DNA of 64,000 nt from Planctomycetota bacterium. GTDB lineage: Bacteria; Planctomycetota; Phycisphaerae; UBA1845. The notes beneath the pieces were generated by a model that was given only the letters and a program-made list of their open reading frames with translations, did no database searches and was not told the origin of the DNA. Of the stretch, positions 54,157-64,000 are shown in pieces. Made by a program: the position numbers and the translations under genes. The DNA lies in contig JAJRWX010000020.1 in assembly GCA_024276605.1 (NCBI GenBank), positions 4,512-68,511 on the forward strand, read 5' to 3'. How positions within the stretch are numbered: the stretch's first letter is position 1; every line of letters starts with the position of its first letter.

Positions 54157-57100
54157 ATGACTGATCAGTTTTTCGACCAACCGATCCTCAACTCACCATA
54201 CGAGTACCCGCAACGACACTGGGAACTTGACGCGAGCGGCCAGCCGACCACCAACATCATCGATAAACGCCGCACTGCCGAGTTCATCACCCCTATTCCC
54301 AAGCCCAAGAAACGGAAGGGATCAAAGGCCCAGCAGGAGATGGTCTTCGACGAGGGCAAGGGACTCTCAACTGCCGAACAGCAATACGACACCATGTCGA
54401 TGGTCAACGACGTGCGTCGTCGTGTGAATATATGGCGTCAATCCACAAATCCAAACGAATGGCAGGTCACACCGGAGACTGCACGGCTTCTCCAACACTG
54501 GCGTCACCATAGCTTTAGCAGCTTGCGACCATTCTTCTGTCAAATCGAAGCCGTCGAGACAGTCATTTGGCTTACCGAAGTCGCGCCGAAACAAGGCAAG
54601 GAAATCCGAGCAGTACTTGACAATTTGTCAACGGCCAGCGAAGAGGCCAATCCCGGACTCGCTCGTCTCGCTCTAAAGCTCGCTACCGGAGCAGGCAAAA
54701 CAACGGTCATGGCCATGATCATCGCTTGGCAGACGATCAACGCTGTGCGACGACCTAACAGCAAGAAATTCACCCGGGGATTCCTCGTGGTCAGTCCCGG
54801 CATCACGATCAAGGATCGCCTGCGCGTCCTACAACCCAACGATCCGGACAGCTACTACCAGTCAAGAGAACTCGTTCCCGGTGACATGCTCGCAGACCTC
54901 GACCGAGCCAAGATCGTCATCACCAACTACCACGCTTTCAAGCTGCGCGAAACAATGGATCTGTCGAAGGGTGGCCGCTCACTGCTGCAGGGTCGCGGCG
55001 AAGAACTCAAGACTCAAGAGACTGAAGGGCAAATGCTGCAACGCGTCATGCCCGACCTCATGGGCATGAAGAACGTTCTAATCCTCAACGACGAGGCCCA
55101 TCACTGCTATCGTGAAAAGCCAGTAGGAGACGACGACGAAGGCGAATTGAAGGGCGATGAAAAGAAAGAAGCTGAAAAGAATCGTGAGGCTGCACGAGTT
55201 TGGATCTCTGGTCTGGAAACGGTTAGCCGCAAGTTAGGCGTCAACCGCATCTTCGACCTTTCCGCAACACCGTTCTTTCTGCGTGGTTCCGGTTACGCCG
55301 AAGGAACCCTGTTTCCCTGGACTACGACTGATTTTTCGCTAATGGATGCGATTGAGTGCGGCATCGTCAAACTCCCCCGCGTTCCCGTCGCCGACAATAT
55401 CCCCGGTGGCGATATGCCGAAGTTCCGCGAGCTATGGAAACACATCGCCAAGAAAATGCCCAAGAAAGGACGTGGCAAGGGTGCCAAACTGGACCCGTTA
55501 AGCATACCGGTCGAGTTACAGACGGCACTCGAAGCGCTCTACGGCCACTACGAAAAGACCTTCCACCTGTGGCAGGAAGAAGGCATCAGCGTACCCCCCT
55601 GCTTCATCCTCGTATGCAACAACACATCGACGTCGAAACTCGTCTACGACTATATCTCCGGCTTCCATCGCGAGAACGACGATGGTTCATCTACGCTTGA
55701 GAATGGTCGGCTCGCGTTGTTCCGTAATTTTAATGAACACGGCGATCCATTCCCCATGCCGCGTACGCTTTTAATTGATAGCGAACAATTGGAATCCGGC
55801 GACGCCCTCGACAAGAACTTTCGTCACGTCGCTTCGGACGAAATCGAACGCTTCCGCCGTGAAATCATTGAACGTACTGGTGATCGCCAACAAGCCGAGA
55901 AAATAACCGACCAAGAACTACTCCGCGAAGTCATGAACACAGTTGGCAAGAAGGACAGACTTGGCGGGGCTATCCGCTGCGTCGTATCAGTGTCCATGTT
56001 GACCGAAGGATGGGACGCCAACAACGTCACCCACATCCTTGGTGTTCGTGCTTTCGGCACTCAGCTTCTCTGCGAGCAGGTCATCGGCCGAGCACTGCGA
56101 CGCCAATCGTATGACCTTAATGAGGATGGCCTGTTCAACGTCGAATACGCTGATGTCCTGGGTATACCATTCGATTTCACAGCCAAGCCCGTTGTCGCAC
56201 CTCCACAGAAGCCGCGTGAAACCGTGCATGTTAAAGCCATGCGCCCCGAACGTGATCACCTTGAGATACAATTCCCGCGCGTGGAGGGCTATCGCGTCGA
56301 ACTTCCGGAAGAACGACTCACCGCCGAGTTCAACGACGACTCGACATTAGAATTAACACCCGATCTCGTCGGCCCGTCGATCACACACAATGCAGGCATC
56401 ATCGGCGAGGCTGTCGATCTGAATCTCATCCACACCGGCGACTTACGCCGGTCAACACTGCTGTTCCACCTTACGCAACGATTACTCTATACCAAGTGGC
56501 GTGATCCCAGCGAGGAACCCAAGCTCCACCTCTTCGGCCAACTCAAACGCATCACGCGGCAGTGGCTCGACAACCACCTCGTCTGCAAAGGTGGCATGTA
56601 CCCGGCACAACTGATGTACCAGGAACTCGCCGACATAGCCTGTGAGCGAATCACCGCCGGTATCACGCGCAAGCTCATTGGCGACAACCCCATCAAGGCC
56701 GTGCTCGACCCGTACAACCCCACCGGCTCGACAATTCACGTAAACTTCAACACGTCGAAAAAGGACCGGTGGGAAACGGATGCCCGACGTTGCCATGTCA
56801 ACTGGGTTATTCTCGACAGCGACTGGGAAGCAGAGTTCTGCCGTGTCGCCGAAGCACATCCGCGCGTTAAAGCATACGTCAAGAATCATAATCTTGGATT
56901 TGAAGTACCTTACAAGTATGGTTCCGAATCCCGCAGGTATCGGCCTGACTTCATTGTACTGGTAGACGACGGCCACGGTGACGGCGACCTAATCAACCTA
57001 GTCGTTGAGATAAAAGGCTATCGACGCGAGGATGCCAAAGAAAAGAAATCCACCATGGAAACATACTGGGTTCCCGGCGTAAACAATCTCAAGACCTATG

Positions 57101-62414: not shown

Positions 62415-64000
62415 ATGACCGACTCGCGAGCGATAGAATCGAGCCCTAGGGGTACGACGGCAACGTTGACAAGCTTAGCGATGTTAAAAATCAACGTCGA
62501 CCAAGGACGGGATTACCTCGATTATCTCAATCCATTTGTTCTCCAGATCCTCGCGAGCGAGAAACCAAATCCAGTTACCGACCGTGTGATCTGTGACCAT
62601 CTTAGGACTACTTTCGGTCTTGAAATTCCATCGCGCGCGGTGCAGGTCGTACTAAAACGCTTGTCTCGGCTATACAAGTTGGAAAAGAGCGCAGGTGTTT
62701 ATCGTATCACGGAGGCCATACCCGACCCGGGTATTGCTATCGCACAGGCAGACGCTCACCGTCACATCAACTCCGTAGCATTTCACTTGCAGGAATTCTC
62801 CAAAGGAACGAATAGGGTGCTGAAAAGCCCCGAATCTGCCATCCACGCGATTTGCGAGTTCCTTGCTGAATTTGATATTTCATGTCTACGCGCATATGTG
62901 CGTGGAACCGTCATACCGCCTTTGTCAGGAACGATGGATAGTAGCAAGGTATTGGTAAGCCGTTACGTACTCCATCTTCAAGAAGCAAAACCTGAACGGT
63001 TCGACAGCTTCATGGTTATGGTACAAGGACACATGCTGGCGAACGCTTTGCTATGCCCGGATCTACAAGACGCTCCCAAGTCATACAAGCATATTACGTT
63101 TTTCCTCGATACACCCTTGCTTGTTCGCATGCTCGACCTCGAAGGTGAGCATCGGCGGGCTGCAATTGATAGCCTCATCGAACTGCTCCGTAGTCTTGGG
63201 GGAAGAATCGCCACGTTCGCACACTTGCAAGAGGAACTAGAACGAGTAGTCACAGGCGCTGCGAGTTTTGTCGAATCACCGGAGGGTCGCGGGTCGATAG
63301 TCTTTGAAGCCCAAAGGCGGGGGACTACGAAATCAGATCTACTACTCAAAGCGGGCCAAATTGACAAGTTCCTTCAAGATGCTGCAGTGAAGATACAAGA
63401 ATGCCCCCCTTACGCTCGCGATCTCCAGATCAATGAAGTAGCGTTCGATGAAGTACTTCAAGATGAGATCGATTACTTCAATCCGCGCGCGAGAGAATAC
63501 GACGTTAATTCATTGCGTTCTATTTACGTACTGCGAGGAAACTCATCGCCGACGTGTTTGGAGAAAGCAGGCGCAGTACTTGTTACCAGCAACGCTGCGT
63601 TCGCGCGGGCAGCATACAATTATGGAAAGCAGCATGAGCAAGCAAATGCAATCTCGGCGGTCATCACAGATTTCAGCTTGGCGAACATGGCGTGGCTAAA
63701 GGCACCTATCGGCGCTCCTTCGGTTCCACGAACTGAAGTCCTTGCATTTTCTTACGCTGCGGTTCAACCGTCTAGGGATTTTCTCACGAAGTACCTCAGG
63801 GAAATCGAGAAGCTTGAACACCATGGGAAGATCAGCAAATCCGATCATCAACTACTCCGAAGCAGCACGTTGGCGCAGGATGAGATGATGGAGCTGACTC
63901 TCGGGAGTGAGGAGGCTTTAACTGAGGAAACAGTTACGGAAACCTTGCGACGAGTCTCAGACGAAATAAAGGAGCCGGTAAACGCTGATCTTGCAGCGGA
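62415..64000 (+). CDS. Uncharacterised protein of more than 528 aa, open to the right edge (N-terminal wHTH-like segment, possible PIN-like core)
   Basis: Not in the ORF track because it has no stop in the window. I translated 62415-64000 codon by codon and found no stop. The ATG lies 5 nt after the mod stop. It starts MTDSRAIESSPRGTTATLTSLAMLKINVDQGRDYLDYLNPFV... Confidence 0.75.
   Translation, partial: MTDSRAIESSPRGTTATLTSLAMLKINVDQGRDYLDYLNPFVLQILASEKPNPVTDRVICDHLRTTFGLEIPSRAVQVVLKRLSRLYKLEKSAGVYRITEAIPDPGIAIAQADAHRHINSVAFHLQEFSKGTNRVLKSPESAIHAICEFLAEFDISCLRAYVRGTVIPPLSGTMDSSKVLVSRYVLHLQEAKPERFDSFMVMVQGHMLANALLCPDLQDAPKSYKHITFFLDTPLLVRMLDLEGEHRRAAIDSLIELLRSLGGRIATFAHLQEELERVVTGAASFVESPEGRGSIVFEAQRRGTTKSDLLLKAGQIDKFLQDAAVKIQECPPYARDLQINEVAFDEVLQDEIDYFNPRAREYDVNSLRSIYVLRGNSSPTCLEKAGAVLVTSNAAFARAAYNYGKQHEQANAISAVITDFSLANMAWLKAPIGAPSVPRTEVLAFSYAAVQPSRDFLTKYLREIEKLEHHGKISKSDHQLLRSSTLAQDEMMELTLGSEEALTEETVTETLRRVSDEIKEPVNADLAA

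What the first reader, a model, noticed from the sequence alone, without database searches (positions are those of the whole stretch)
54157..64000. Type III-like R-M operon expanded with a Schlafen-core/HATPase protein, a micro-ORF, a nested four-helix-bundle gene and an unknown wHTH/PIN-like protein: a candidate composite defence system
Five or six co-oriented genes are packed with overlaps or gaps of 5 nt or less, apart from one 184-bp spacer that carries the 19-nt direct repeats. They are:
- res (helicase plus PD-(D/E)xK).
- A 65-codon ORF.
- An AlbA_2 plus HATPase_c_4 plus wHTH protein.
- mod (beta-class).
- An ORF of more than 528 aa that leaves the window.

A plain Type III system needs only res and mod. 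AlbA_2 is the prokaryotic counterpart of the Schlafen core, and HATPase_c_4-type proteins recur in defence islands without an assigned mechanism. The terminal ORF has no recognisable family.

mod appears damaged at its 5' end while res and the accessories look intact. The accessory genes may therefore form, or contribute to, a restriction-independent module. The locus is flanked by AT-richer non-coding DNA and may lie inside a tRNA-bounded island.
Basis: partly seen in the sequence, partly recalled or inferred. Interest (0 to 1): 0.7.

Follow-up and report, generated by a model that had tools for sequence, protein, structure and literature searches.

The report
Restriction operon with gene-in-gene cassette
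This is a known kind of restriction-modification operon carrying swappable accessory genes rather than a fixed multi-gene defence system, but its methylase gene holds a small stem-enclosed gene nested so that both reading frames stay usable, which I found described nowhere.

Summary
The core is a Type III-like res->mod pair of an already named family: NCBIfam NF046055 "BPTD_3080", 1394 bits, and PADLOC MTase_III, 1252 bits.

- In 75 related loci the res-mod junction is a variable cargo slot, empty in 20 and otherwise holding about 50 unrelated gene clusters.
- The 65-codon ORF is the stump of a DinD/Bro-N-like gene displaced by the Schlafen-GHKL ATPase gene.
- The terminal ORF is absent from 80 related loci. 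It belongs to a large unannotated family (wHTH, PIN-like domain, coiled coil, 2 TM helices) that directly follows hsdS or mod in 7 of 8 contexts sampled.

The unexpected part is the nested four-helix-bundle (4HB) gene. It is a 23S-rRNA-IVS-type cassette (61620-62100) closed by a covarying stem of about 32 bp.
- The mod frame never contains a stop across it (0/354 stop-prone contexts against 16% elsewhere).
- The 4HB frame is under purifying selection (pN/pS 0.40 against 1.55).
- 111 of the 120 best Mod protein clusters have a cassette-sized insert at this site, which 10 DNA loci show to be the 4HB gene.
- Other methyltransferases and a leuS gene carry such cassettes, always in the same phase.

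The parts
54157..57234 (+). res: Type III-like restriction subunit (SF2 helicase with DEAH box plus C-terminal PD-(D/E)xK endonuclease)
   Evidence: NCBIfam NF046055 'BPTD_3080 family restriction endonuclease', 1393.9 bits against a cutoff of 800, matched full length. Pfam ResIII and RE_endonuc. It lies upstream of mod in all 75 related loci that had enough flank.
57231..57428 (+). 65-codon ORF: remnant of a DinD/Bro-N-like cargo gene, probably not a functional gene
   Evidence: Its last 29 aa match DinD positions 60-88 (NF008573, E 1e-3) and PADLOC PDC-S13. Window 57342-57388 is 89% identical to the intact 280-aa Bro-N gene of L065, whose res is 93% identical to this one.
57415..58884 (+). 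Stand-alone Schlafen (AlbA_2) + GHKL ATPase (HATPase_c_4) protein with a likely C-terminal wHTH; cargo in the res-mod slot
   Evidence: PF04326 E 8e-20 and PF13749 E 2e-17. Relatives occupy the same slot in 4 other loci and sit in Type I operons L167 and L169. DNA homology to relatives resumes only at the mod ATG, so 57389-59066 is an inserted block.
58912..59038 (+). Two exact 19-nt direct repeats (58912-58930 and 59020-59038) in the 184-nt spacer; part of the cargo block, function unknown
   Evidence: 2 matches against 0.01 expected. They extend to 23 nt at 96% identity (D9). No sigma-70-like promoter was found. The spacer is absent from L065 and L165.
59069..62409 (+). mod: beta-class N6/N4 DNA methyltransferase, with one base missing at about 59249 (frameshift or sequencing error)
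   Evidence: PF01555 E 6e-32. PADLOC MTase_III PDLC03632, 1251.9 bits. Homologues read '...DPQLVWRGKDEQDW' across the break.
61272..61356 (+). 'Empty' heptamer-repeat hairpin inserted in frame in mod (arms 61283-61307 and 61328-61352, 20-nt loop), translated as SGEWLVASGEKKKTQATSHKPPST
   Evidence: 25-nt arms, 84% complementary (I4). It replaces 31-37 nt in L065 and L165, a net gain of 48-54 nt, which is a multiple of 3. Similar hairpins sit at the same Mod site in L001, L004, L006, L007, L019 and L043.
61620..62100 (+). IVS-type four-helix-bundle cassette inside mod (481 nt replacing a loop of about 43 nt; net +146 codons, mod frame open throughout)
   Evidence: Boundaries come from blastn against relatives lacking the cassette, L065 and L165. 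Nine further Mod loci carry the 4HB gene at the same site (L001-L008, L029), and 111 of 120 Mod protein clusters have a cassette-sized insert there.
61620..61661 (+). 5' arm of the closing stem (heptamer repeats GTGGTTA and similar); includes the 4HB Shine-Dalgarno GGAGGAT at 61655-61661
   Evidence: RNAalifold consensus of 32 pairs with 62051-62094. 7 pairs show compensatory changes, and 91% of cells are paired against 37-51% when the partners are slid. The stem also appears in the MFE and centroid folds.
61673..62041 (+). Nested four-helix-bundle gene (122 aa), read +1 nt relative to mod
   Evidence: PF05635, 137 bits; TIGR02436, 132 bits; NF008911, 146 bits. pN/pS is 0.40, and codon position 3 is the most variable. 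The ATG is conserved in 9 of 10 loci. PDB relatives are 2GSC and 2RLD.
62051..62094 (+). 3' arm of the closing stem; 62051-62057 (AUUUUCC, mod-frame 'DFP') pairs with the 4HB Shine-Dalgarno
62415..64000 (+). 5' 528 codons of a 640-aa protein ('Y638'): wHTH, PIN-like alpha/beta domain (DTPLL motif), long coiled coil, two C-terminal TM helices
   Evidence: The full sequence is P0001. No Pfam, NCBIfam, PADLOC or PHROG hit. AF2 model pLDDT 72. Foldseek gives weak PIN/VapC matches. 3138 clusters at 50% identity. The gene directly follows hsdS or mod in 7 of 8 contexts; the eighth is a decayed Type I locus.

Best explanation
The locus is a Type III-like restriction-modification operon of the named BPTD_3080 family, in res->mod order. 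Three independent add-ons have accumulated on it. It is not a fixed composite system.

**1. Cargo slot between res and mod.** The res-mod junction is a hot spot for interchangeable cargo. Here a stand-alone Schlafen-GHKL-ATPase-wHTH gene, with a 184-nt spacer, has replaced most of an older DinD/Bro-N-like gene. The 65-codon ORF is the stump of that older gene.

**2. Cassette inside mod.** A 481-nt cassette of the 23S-rRNA-intervening-sequence type sits in what looks like a short, dispensable loop of Mod, which spans 16 residues in homologues without the insert. It is a 122-aa four-helix-bundle (4HB) gene closed by a stem of about 32 bp built from heptamer repeats.
- The cassette is always in the phase that leaves the mod frame free of stop codons. 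Ribosomes therefore read straight through, and Mod gains a poorly conserved linker of about 146 aa.
- The 4HB protein is made from its own start codon, one nucleotide out of phase.
- The 4HB Shine-Dalgarno is buried in the closing stem. Its translation is therefore probably coupled to opening of the stem, either by ribosomes translating mod or after RNase III processing.

**3. Gene downstream of mod.** The 640-aa protein has a wHTH, a PIN-like domain, a coiled coil and 2 TM helices. It belongs to a large family that sits directly after the DNA-recognition gene of R-M operons (hsdS or mod). This is the position PrrC holds in the prr locus. It is most likely a latent nuclease-type effector linked to the R-M complex.

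**Shown:** the gene identities, the cargo variability, the cassette boundaries, the dual coding with stop avoidance, the covarying stem, and the operon positions.

**Inferred:** read-through translation of Mod, coupling of 4HB expression, RNase activity of the Schlafen protein, and an abortive-infection-like role for the 640-aa protein.
For: **Core system.** res matches NF046055 at 1394 bits and mod matches PADLOC MTase_III at 1252 bits. res lies upstream of mod in 75 of 75 loci.

**Cargo slot.**
- The res-mod gap is 60 nt or less in 20 loci, 60-400 nt in 8, 400-1200 nt in 21 and over 1200 nt in 26.
- The gaps contain 74 ORFs falling into 50 clusters.
- These include Fic, AlbA_2/HATPase_c_4, DUF1828, Bro-N, GmrSD, AAA_15/21, DUF1016/YhcG, ORF6N and NTP_transf_2.
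- The blastn breakpoints lie at 57388 and 59067.

**Cassette.**
- All 10 Mod-anchored loci with the 4HB gene (the window, L001-L008 and L029) have it in the same phase, with 0 stops in the mod frame against 1-12 in every other frame.
- Synonymous-codon shuffles give P(0 stops) of 0.019-0.18 per gene.
- T at 4HB codon position 3 before AA/AG/GA codons is 0/354 in the 12 Mod-nested genes compared, against 177/1098 elsewhere. In free-standing genes it is 295/1864.
- pN/pS is 0.40 in the 4HB frame and 1.55 in the mod frame.
- The stem has 32 pairs, 7 of them compensatory.
- 111 of 120 Mod protein clusters have 130-189 aa (mode 162) where homologues without the insert have 16 aa.
- Nested copies also occur in distant Mods, in Eco57I/N6-type methyltransferases and in LeuRS, always in the +2 frame and never in the +1 frame.
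- A homologue lies inside the Azospirillum 23S rRNA.

**640-aa protein.**

**Schlafen-ATPase genes in R-M operons.** This association is reported in PMC13462974 and in bioRxiv 10.64898/2026.05.29.728809.
Against: - No expression, proteomic or methylome data exist. Read-through translation is inferred only from stop avoidance.
- mod carries a 1-nt deletion here, so in this genome the R-M system may be inactive, or the base may be an assembly error.
- The AlbA_2/HATPase gene and the 640-aa gene co-occur in 3 of the 8 contexts seen for the 640-aa gene (the window, L167 and L169). This leaves room for a functional link between those two.
- L165 shares mod-640aa-UvrD with the window lineage, so the downstream gene may be a stable extension in this sub-lineage.
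- The whole-cassette fold energy is not better than shuffles (z -0.2).
- The PIN assignment rests on weak Foldseek scores (E 0.3-1).
Confidence: 0.75

Rival explanations
1. All five or six genes form one obligate composite defence system, in which Schlafen/ATPase, 4HB and the PIN-like protein work with Res and Mod, or replace a damaged Mod.
For: - The genes are tightly packed and co-oriented.
- Schlafen-ATPase proteins and the 640-aa family both recur in R-M operons, and they co-occur in L167 and L169.
- mod-640aa adjacency is shared with L165.
Against: - 20 of 75 related res-mod pairs have nothing between them, and the rest carry about 50 unrelated clusters.
- The 640-aa gene is absent from 80 of 80 Mod-anchored loci.
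- The closest relatives swap the cargo: DinD-like in L065 and a reverse transcriptase in L165.
- PADLOC has no system-level match for the accessories.
Confidence: 0.08
2. The cassette behaves as it does in 23S rRNA. RNase III cuts the closing stem and excises the 4HB RNA, so mod mRNA is split. The cassette is then chiefly a post-transcriptional brake on Mod, or a way to release a separate 4HB mRNA, and read-through is incidental.
For: - A long conserved stem encloses the gene, as in 23S IVS elements that RNase III cleaves (PMC4990558).
- A family member sits in a real 23S rRNA.
Against: - If the mRNA were always cut there would be no reason to keep 146-160 codons stop-free in the mod frame. 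Yet stops are absent in all 10 DNA loci, and the frame is open in over 110 protein clusters.
- In L085 the 4HB gene has acquired a stop while the mod frame stays open.
Confidence: 0.15
3. The nested ORF is not a real gene. The insert is simply a lineage-specific linker domain of Mod, and the 4HB similarity is a relic.
For: - Gene callers report only the long Mod ORF.
- L001 has ATA in place of the ATG, and L085 has an internal stop.
- Internal-deletion derivatives exist in L009 and L019.
Against: - PF05635 E 3e-40, with matches above the curated NCBIfam cutoffs.
- pN/pS is 0.40 in the 4HB frame and 1.55 in the mod frame. Third-position entropy is 1.17 against 0.67 and 0.48 at positions 1 and 2.
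- The length is exactly 122 codons in 12 of the 13 nested genes compared (121 in L092), with a conserved ATG and a purine-rich SD.
Confidence: 0.07
4. The locus is a decaying R-M system. The mod frameshift means the operon is a pseudogene cluster, and the accessory genes are hitch-hiking debris.
For: - One base is missing at about 59249.
- A gene stump lies next to res.
Against: - res, the rest of mod (1038 codons), the 4HB gene, the AlbA_2 gene and the 640-aa gene are all intact.
- A single missing base in a metagenome-type contig is a common assembly error.
Confidence: 0.15

Closest known systems
Type III restriction-modification systems (EcoP1I/EcoP15I type); specifically the NCBIfam NF046055 'BPTD_3080 family restriction endonuclease' with its PADLOC MTase_III PDLC03632 partner
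   Same: A beta-class N6/N4 methyltransferase paired with a Res protein made of an SF2 DEAH helicase and a PD-(D/E)xK nuclease. Both proteins score far above the family thresholds.
   Different: The gene order is res->mod rather than the classical mod->res. The proteins are larger. There is a variable cargo slot between the two genes and a gene cassette inside mod. The biochemistry of this family was not found in the searched literature.
23S rRNA intervening sequences carrying an S23p/four-helix-bundle ORF (Leptospira, Coxiella; PMC4990558)
   Same: The same protein family (PF05635/TIGR02436). The gene is enclosed by long terminal inverted repeats that form a stem, and the element is about 430-480 nt long. 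A homologue of the window's protein lies inside the Azospirillum 23S rRNA.
   Different: Here the element lies inside a protein-coding gene. It is phase-locked, and its +2 frame is kept free of stops, so the host protein can be read through. In rRNA the element is cut out by RNase III.
Rickettsia palindromic elements (RPEs): palindromic selfish DNA inserted in frame into protein-coding genes (own knowledge: Ogata et al. 2000)
   Same: Hairpin-forming DNA inserted in multiples of three at tolerated protein loops and translated as part of the host protein. The 'empty' hairpin at 61272-61356 behaves exactly like this.
   Different: RPEs carry no gene. This cassette carries a conserved 122-aa gene in a second frame, and its arms are heptamer repeats of unrelated sequence.
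Avd, the accessory four-helix-bundle protein of diversity-generating retroelements
   Same: A distantly related fold, with both families forming pentamers (own knowledge for the pentamers). The matches are weak: NF033474 40.9 bits, bAvd 36.7 bits, PHROG 3206.
   Different: Both scores are below the curated cutoffs. No reverse transcriptase and no template/variable repeat pair lie nearby.
Stand-alone Schlafen-GHKL ATPase ('Schlatpase') proteins and SLFN-pAgo (bioRxiv 10.64898/2026.05.29.728809; PMC13462974)
   Same: PF04326 and PF13749 in one polypeptide, encoded inside an R-M operon. Those papers report such proteins as tightly associated with R-M and BREX systems, and the SLFN domain as a tRNA-cleaving effector.
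   Different: No Argonaute, Csx15 or NACHT sensor is fused. A C-terminal wHTH is present instead. Activity and trigger are untested.
PrrC anticodon nuclease in the EcoprrI Type Ic operon (own knowledge: hsdM-hsdS-prrC-hsdR)
   Same: The 640-aa family sits between hsdS and hsdR with overlapping stop and start codons in L083, L169 and L170. In L167 it also follows hsdS, with two genes before hsdR. This suggests an effector held by the R-M complex.
   Different: No sequence similarity, and no ABC-ATPase domain. Instead it has a wHTH, a PIN-like domain, a coiled coil and 2 TM helices.

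Membership tests
Type III R-M system | Mod is a beta-class N6/N4 methyltransferase (motif IV DPPY before motif I, TRD between them) | tested here: met
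   PF01555 E 6e-32. PADLOC MTase_III, 1252 bits. 'IDPPYG' precedes 'DPTCGSGTT' in the translation.
Type III R-M system | Res combines an SF2 helicase (DEAH) with a PD-(D/E)xK endonuclease | tested here: met
   ResIII and RE_endonuc. 'NDEAHH' and 'PDF...EIKG' are present in the sequence. There are weak PADLOC REase_III hits.
Type III R-M system | Classical operon order mod then res | tested here: not met
   res precedes mod here and in all 75 related loci. A distant Mod subfamily (L089, L091, L108, L111) has the classical order.
Type III R-M system | Res acts only in complex with Mod; ATP-dependent cleavage needs unmethylated sites | not testable with these tools
   Needs biochemistry.
NCBIfam NF046055 (BPTD_3080 family restriction endonuclease) | Whole-protein score above the curated cutoff of 800 bits | tested here: met
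   1393.9 bits, profile positions 1-969 of 970.
23S-rRNA-IVS-type element | Encodes a PF05635/TIGR02436 four-helix-bundle protein | tested here: met
   137.3 bits against a cutoff of 33.8; TIGR02436 132.4 against 24.
23S-rRNA-IVS-type element | Terminal inverted repeats form a long stem that encloses the ORF | tested here: met
   32-pair consensus stem with 7 compensatory pairs. Duplex energies are -37 to -80 kcal/mol in 21 nested copies and average -51 in 39 free-standing copies.
23S-rRNA-IVS-type element | Located in a 23S rRNA helix (9, 25 or 45) | tested here: not met
   It lies inside the mod coding sequence, and Rfam finds no rRNA there. A homologue does lie in the Azospirillum 23S rRNA.
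23S-rRNA-IVS-type element | Excised from the transcript by RNase III | not testable with these tools
   Needs RNA work.
DGR accessory protein Avd | Scores above the curated cutoffs and lies next to a DGR reverse transcriptase with TR/VR repeats | tested here: not met
   NF033474 40.9 bits against a cutoff of 80, and PF22296 36.7 against 40. None of the larger ORFs tested between 30.5 and 64 kb has an RVT domain. No long direct repeat pair was found.
Schlafen-GHKL ATPase ('Schlatpase') protein | AlbA_2 (PF04326) and HATPase_c_4 (PF13749) in one polypeptide | tested here: met
   71.9 and 63.3 bits, both above their cutoffs.
Schlafen-GHKL ATPase ('Schlatpase') protein | SLFN domain is an active (t)RNA nuclease controlled by ATP-dependent oligomerisation | not testable with these tools
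   Known for SLFN-pAgo and Cash. Not assessed for this protein.
PIN-domain nuclease (for the 640-aa protein) | Sequence match to a PIN family model | tested here: not met
   No Pfam, NCBIfam, PADLOC or PHROG hit. The PDB profile search found nothing significant.
PIN-domain nuclease (for the 640-aa protein) | PIN-like alpha/beta fold with conserved acidic residues | tested here: inconclusive
   The model has pLDDT 72. Foldseek hits to PAE0151, PAE2754 and VapC complexes have probability 0.87-0.96 but E 0.3-1. D232 (in DTPLL), E243, E274, D363 and D419 are invariant in 43 sequences.
PrrC-like R-M-guarded effector | Gene embedded between hsdS and hsdR of a Type I operon | tested here: met
   Directly between hsdS and hsdR in L083, L169 and L170; after hsdS with two genes before hsdR in L167. 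After hsdS in L081/L082, where no hsdR was called. Next to an hsdR fragment in L168. In the window and in L165 it follows a Type III-like mod instead.
PrrC-like R-M-guarded effector | ABC-ATPase N-domain plus anticodon-nuclease C-domain | tested here: not met
   No such domains were detected.

The most novel reading that the evidence does not exclude
Stem-enclosed four-helix-bundle (IVS-type) cassettes may be a previously unrecognised class of 'translatable' gene cassette that colonises protein-coding genes as well as rRNA.
- They insert at tolerated loops in one fixed phase.
- They keep one alternative frame free of stops so the host protein is still made. This creates same-strand dual-coding stretches of about 370 nt that persist down to about 50% protein identity.
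- Their hosts are mainly R-M methyltransferases (two Mod subfamilies and Eco57I/N6-type enzymes), but also an essential gene, leuS.
- Expression of the nested protein is gated by a stem that hides its ribosome-binding site.

Separately, the 640-aa family (wHTH, PIN-like domain, 2 TM helices; over 3000 clusters at 50% identity, no annotation) may be a new R-M-coupled abortive-infection effector.
Probability: 0.45. Interest if true: 0.85.

Novelty: new variant of a known kind. Interest (0 to 1): 0.68.

Why it matters
**For the finding as written.** The result is deflationary. The locus is a named R-M family with swappable cargo, and it should not be counted as a new multi-gene defence system.

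**The nested cassette.**
- Long same-strand overlapping genes are rare and contested in bacteria. Here one is supported by independent lines of evidence: purifying selection in one frame, absolute stop avoidance in the other, a conserved start codon and SD, and a covarying stem. It recurs in over 100 methyltransferase clusters and in other host genes.
- It links the long-puzzling 23S rRNA intervening sequences, whose ORF function and mobility remain unexplained, to insertions in protein genes. This gives a tractable setting for asking what the four-helix-bundle protein does and how the element moves.
- Gene callers do not report the nested gene, so such genes are systematically missing from annotations.

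**The 640-aa family.** It is a large, unannotated and very consistently R-M-embedded family, and a good candidate for experimental defence screens.

Tried and rejected
- **tRNA-bounded island.** ARAGORN found no tRNA in the window.
- **Defence island upstream.** Pfam shows Big_5, dockerin, RHS and Ser/Thr-kinase-TPR proteins, none of them defence genes.
- **Rfam on 52-64 kb.** Nothing relevant.
- **Promoter scan of the spacer.** No sigma-70-like site, so the 19-mer repeats remain unexplained.
- **PADLOC and PHROGs for the accessories.** Only weak or generic hits.
- **PDB sequence search for the 640-aa protein.** Nothing. Foldseek gave only weak PIN-like matches.
- **AlphaFold model of Mod.** It was meant to show that the cassette sits in a surface loop, but pLDDT was 42.6 from a 12-row alignment, so it was not used.
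- **Whole-cassette RNA fold.** The energy is no better than shuffles (z -0.2). The stem is supported by covariation, not by energy.
- **Exact-sequence look-up of P0001.** This was meant to show the DNA beyond 64000, but the protein is not on record.
- **Type I genes near free-standing 4HB genes.** tblastn found none within about 4 kb, so a general R-M linkage of free-standing copies was not shown.
- **DGR reading of the 4HB gene.** Rejected: scores are below cutoffs, and there is no RT and no TR/VR pair.
- **Frameshift fusion of Mod to 4HB.** Rejected: the 4HB frame is closed by a stop 0-10 codons upstream of its start in the loci examined.
- **Monophyly of cassette-bearing Mods.** A crude UPGMA tree scatters them among cassette-free Mods, but the family is star-like (68-74% identity). 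Gain versus loss is therefore unresolved.
- **Literature searches.** Searches for BPTD_3080, PF05635, IVS proteins in coding genes and heptamer repeats with 4HB found no description of the nested arrangement. The library is incomplete, so prior description cannot be excluded.

Full report
**1. Observation**

- res is 54157-57234.
- A 65-codon ORF at 57231-57428 overlaps the res stop (ATGA).
- An ORF at 57385(TTG)/57415(ATG)-58884 carries SLFN_AlbA_2 and HATPase_c_4.
- A 184-nt spacer holds an exact 19-mer twice (58912-58930 and 59020-59038), where 0.01 matches are expected by chance.
- mod is 59069-62409.
- A nested PF05635 gene lies at 61652/61673-62041.
- An ORF starts at 62415 and runs off the window.

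mod really is broken near its 5' end. Homologues read RNRDLDPQLVWRGKDEQDW, and the window lacks one base at about 59249. This could be a frameshift or an assembly error.

There is no tRNA in the window. The lower-GC DNA upstream encodes surface, RHS and kinase proteins, not defence genes.

**2. The core is a known, named R-M family**

- Res scores 1393.9 bits, full length, against NCBIfam NF046055 'BPTD_3080 family restriction endonuclease' (cutoff 800). It has ResIII and RE_endonuc domains.
- Mod scores 1251.9 bits against PADLOC MTase_III PDLC03632. It has the beta-class motif order.
- A scan of one genome per species with a Mod alignment returned 80 loci from many phyla. Wherever enough flank was present, res lies upstream of mod (75 of 75).

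**3. The res-mod junction is a cargo slot, not a fixed set of partners**

- The distance from the res stop to the mod start is 60 nt or less in 20 loci, 60-400 nt in 8, 400-1200 nt in 21, and over 1200 nt in 26.
- The longer gaps hold 74 ORFs that fall into 50 unrelated clusters.
- The recurrent ones are Fic (6 loci), AlbA_2/HATPase_c_4 (5, including the window), DUF1828 (4 ORFs in 3 loci), Bro-N/DinD-like (4), GmrSD (3), AAA_15/21, DUF1016/YhcG nuclease, ORF6N and NTP_transf_2.
- L065 has a Res 93% identical to the window's and carries an intact 280-aa Bro-N gene in the slot. Window 57342-57388 is 89% identical to part of that gene. The micro-ORF's last 29 residues match DinD.
- Homology to L065 and L165 resumes exactly at the mod ATG (59067-59069).

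So 57389-59066 (the AlbA_2 gene plus the spacer with the 19-mers) is a block that replaced most of an older DinD-like gene. The 65-codon ORF is the stump of that gene.

**4. The Schlafen-ATPase protein**

The combination of PF04326, PF13749 and a C-terminal helix-turn-helix-like tail is the architecture recently called a stand-alone 'Schlatpase'.
- Two 2026 papers report Schlafen proteins with ATPase and DNA-binding domains as tightly associated with R-M and BREX systems.
- The same papers show SLFN domains acting as tRNA-cleaving effectors, with the GHKL domain driving ATP-dependent oligomerisation (PMC13462974; bioRxiv 10.64898/2026.05.29.728809).
- Relatives also sit in Type I operons (L167, 39% identical; L169).

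Its presence in an R-M operon is therefore already described. Its trigger and activity here are inferred only by analogy.

**5. The terminal ORF**

- The full protein (P0001) is 640 aa.
- It has no Pfam, NCBIfam, PADLOC or PHROG match and no PDB sequence relative.
- The family is nevertheless large: 3138 clusters at 50% identity with E of 1e-3 or better, and 1073 with E of 1e-30 or better. Members from different phyla are 60-69% identical.
- An AlphaFold model (pLDDT 72) shows four parts:
  - an N-terminal winged-helix-like unit;
  - a central alpha/beta domain beginning with an invariant DTPLL strand;
  - a 79-residue helix;
  - two hydrophobic C-terminal helices (sequence).
- Foldseek's best-supported matches for the central domain are PIN/VapC proteins, at probability 0.87-0.96 but E 0.3-1. 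The PIN assignment is therefore tentative.
- The gene is absent from all 80 Mod-anchored loci.
- In seven of the eight genomic contexts examined it starts at or within a few bases of the stop of the DNA-recognition gene.
  - After hsdS, with hsdR directly downstream: L083, L169 and L170. In L167 it follows hsdS with two genes before hsdR, and in L081/L082 it follows hsdS with no hsdR called.
  - In a decayed Type I locus, followed by an hsdR fragment: L168.
  - After a Type III-like mod: the window, and L165/L166, where a UvrD-like helicase follows.
- L165 is a close relative of the window locus. Its Mod N-terminus is 97% identical and its C-terminus 92% identical. It carries a reverse transcriptase in the cargo slot and no cassette in mod.

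The position is that of PrrC in the prr locus (own knowledge). I therefore infer a latent effector tied to the R-M complex.

**6. The nested gene is the unusual feature**

*Boundaries.* DNA comparison with relatives that lack it sets the cassette at 61620-62100. These 481 nt replace a loop of about 43 nt, a net gain of 146 codons.

*Contents.* It holds a 122-aa four-helix-bundle gene (PF05635 137 bits, TIGR02436 132 bits, NF008911 146 bits). The PDB relatives are 2GSC and 2RLD. The gene is read one nucleotide out of phase with mod.

*Same site, same phase.* The 4HB gene occupies the same Mod site, in the same phase, in L001-L008 and L029. L009 and L019 carry internal-deletion remnants.

*Stop avoidance in the mod frame.*
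- In all 10 loci (the window plus these nine) the mod frame has no stop across the 4HB gene, while every other frame has 1-12 stops.
- Synonymous-codon shuffling gives P(no stop) of 0.019-0.18 per gene.
- The only way to create a mod-frame stop is a T at 4HB codon position 3 before a codon starting AA, AG or GA. That T occurs 0 times in 354 such contexts in the 12 Mod-nested genes compared (these loci plus L085 and L086). It occurs 177 times in 1098 other contexts. In 61 free-standing relatives it occurs 295 times in 1864.

*Selection in the two frames.* The 4HB frame is under purifying selection (pN/pS 0.40; position entropies 0.67, 0.48 and 1.17). The mod frame is not (pN/pS 1.55; 38% against 62% amino-acid identity).

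*Start signals.* The ATG is conserved in 9 of 10 loci (ATA in L001). A purine-rich SD lies 11-13 nt upstream.

*Frequency.* Among the 120 best Mod protein clusters, 111 have 130-189 residues (mode 162) between FVIFGEPD and GVDVF. Homologues without the insert have 16.

**7. A stem encloses the gene**

- Heptamer-repeat arms at 61620-61661 and 62051-62094 form a 32-pair consensus stem in eight related cassettes.
- 7 pairs show compensatory changes. 91% of cells are paired, against 37-51% when the partners are slid.
- The innermost helix pairs the SD GGAGGAU with AUUUUCC, which in the mod frame reads the conserved 'DFP'.
- Arm sequences differ completely between lineages yet stay complementary (GTGGTTA-type, GTTTTGA-type, GGGGACT-type, GCGAGCA-type). 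Duplex energies are -37 to -80 kcal/mol.
- Free-standing relatives are stem-enclosed too, averaging -51 kcal/mol in 39 loci.
- A homologue lies at about position 1200 of the Azospirillum lipoferum 23S rRNA, the classical IVS setting (PMC4990558).
- A gene-less hairpin of the same repeat type sits in frame at 61272-61356, and similar ones sit at the same site in six other Mods.

**8. Host range**

A metagenome scan with the 4HB alignment gave 80 loci.
- The +1 frame is never open across the gene (0 of 80).
- The +2 frame is open in 19 of 80.
- In 12 of these 19 it continues for at least 100 codons beyond the gene:
  - three in this Mod family;
  - four in a distant PF01555 Mod subfamily (32-48% identical) at the homologous site, with res downstream;
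  - three in Eco57I/MmeI/N6_Mtase-type enzymes;
  - one in a 977-aa leucyl-tRNA synthetase;
  - one unassigned.
- Among the other 68 loci the +2 frame is open in 7 (10%). This is the background rate.
- Cassette-bearing Mods are scattered among cassette-free ones in a crude tree, and the two 4HB subgroups do not follow Mod similarity. This suggests repeated gain or loss but does not settle it.

**9. How it most likely works**

*Shown:*
- a res->mod R-M pair;
- independent, exchangeable add-ons;
- a dual-coding cassette with a conserved closing stem.

*Inferred:*
- Ribosomes translate Mod through the cassette, adding a poorly conserved loop between two conserved Mod segments.
- The 4HB protein is initiated internally when the stem that hides its SD is opened, either by mod translation or after RNase III cleavage.
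- The Schlafen-ATPase protein and the 640-aa protein are second-line, nuclease-type effectors that ride in R-M operons.

The function of the 4HB protein itself remains unknown. DGR Avd is only a distant relative (both matches below cutoff; no RT or TR/VR pair).

**10. Novelty**

- The R-M family, cargo in R-M operons, and Schlafen-ATPase genes in R-M operons are all known.
- I found no description of IVS-type 4HB cassettes inside protein-coding genes, or of this dual coding, in the searchable literature. That library is incomplete.
- The nearest analogues are 23S IVS elements, Rickettsia palindromic elements and, conceptually, inteins.

**11. Dead ends**

- The Mod structure model was too poor to use.
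- Rfam, the promoter scan and the tRNA scan gave nothing.
- The sequence beyond 64000 could not be retrieved.

Noticed in passing
L097:2442-5375 (nested gene about 3628-3987): A 977-aa leucyl-tRNA synthetase gene carries a stem-enclosed 4HB cassette within or just after its editing domain. The leuS frame stays open across it, and the arms are GGGGACT-type heptamers. This is an essential housekeeping gene acting as host.
   Followed up: partly
L134, L157, L128 (metagenome contigs): 4HB cassettes are nested, in the same +2 phase, in Eco57I/MmeI/N6_Mtase-type methyltransferases, between the 'YYTP' region and the motif I region. In L128 the host frame ends 6 codons after the cassette.
   Followed up: partly
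L089, L091, L108, L111: A distant PF01555 Mod subfamily (32-48% identical, classical mod->res order) carries the cassette at the homologous site, with different arm heptamers in L089 and L111 (for example GTTTTGA).
   Followed up: partly
L085:802-1167: In this Mod the nested 4HB gene has an internal stop (EKI*HAS) while the mod frame remains open. This fits the host frame being the more strongly protected of the two.
   Followed up: no
L001:12357-12359: The 4HB start codon is ATA instead of ATG in a complete Arenicellales chromosome. The rest of the gene is intact.
   Followed up: no
L165:467-2020 and 6791-8866: In the closest relative of the window's mod and 640-aa pair, the res-mod slot holds a 517-aa reverse transcriptase (RVT_1), and a UvrD-like helicase follows the 640-aa gene. 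The same helicase may lie just beyond window position 64000.
   Followed up: partly
L167:8001-11472 and L169:3593-8914: The 640-aa family and an AlbA_2/HATPase_c_4 protein occur together inside Type I R-M operons, as they do in the window (3 of 8 contexts). This may be non-random, but no statistics were done.
   Followed up: no
window 58912-58930 and 59020-59038: Two exact 19-nt direct repeats lie 108 nt apart in the spacer upstream of mod. They are significant, but they have no promoter-like match and no counterpart in related loci. They could be a binding site for the adjacent wHTH protein.
   Followed up: partly
window 59865-60410: The middle of mod, probably the target-recognition domain, has no DNA similarity to close relatives whose flanks are 82-92% identical. 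This suggests a swapped specificity region.
   Followed up: no
window 60777-60894 and 61077-61151: Further degenerate copies of the heptamer arms lie in mod (families D1, D2 and D5). The first overlaps a segment ('LSVASG...DWPPAT') that is present in most Mod homologues, possibly an ancient fixed hairpin.
   Followed up: no
L171:4001-4357 (Azospirillum lipoferum 4B plasmid AZO_p2): A 4HB homologue (34.5% identical) lies inside a 23S rRNA gene (2795-5993). It is not listed in the plasmid collection's gene table, which omits RNA genes and is incomplete.
   Followed up: yes
window 33570-53897 (- strand): The region upstream of the R-M locus holds a run of very large genes typical of planctomycete-like genomes: a 1963-aa and a 1183-aa protein with Big_5 and beta-propeller domains, a dockerin protein, an RHS-repeat fragment, and a Ser/Thr kinase with TPR repeats.
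   Followed up: partly
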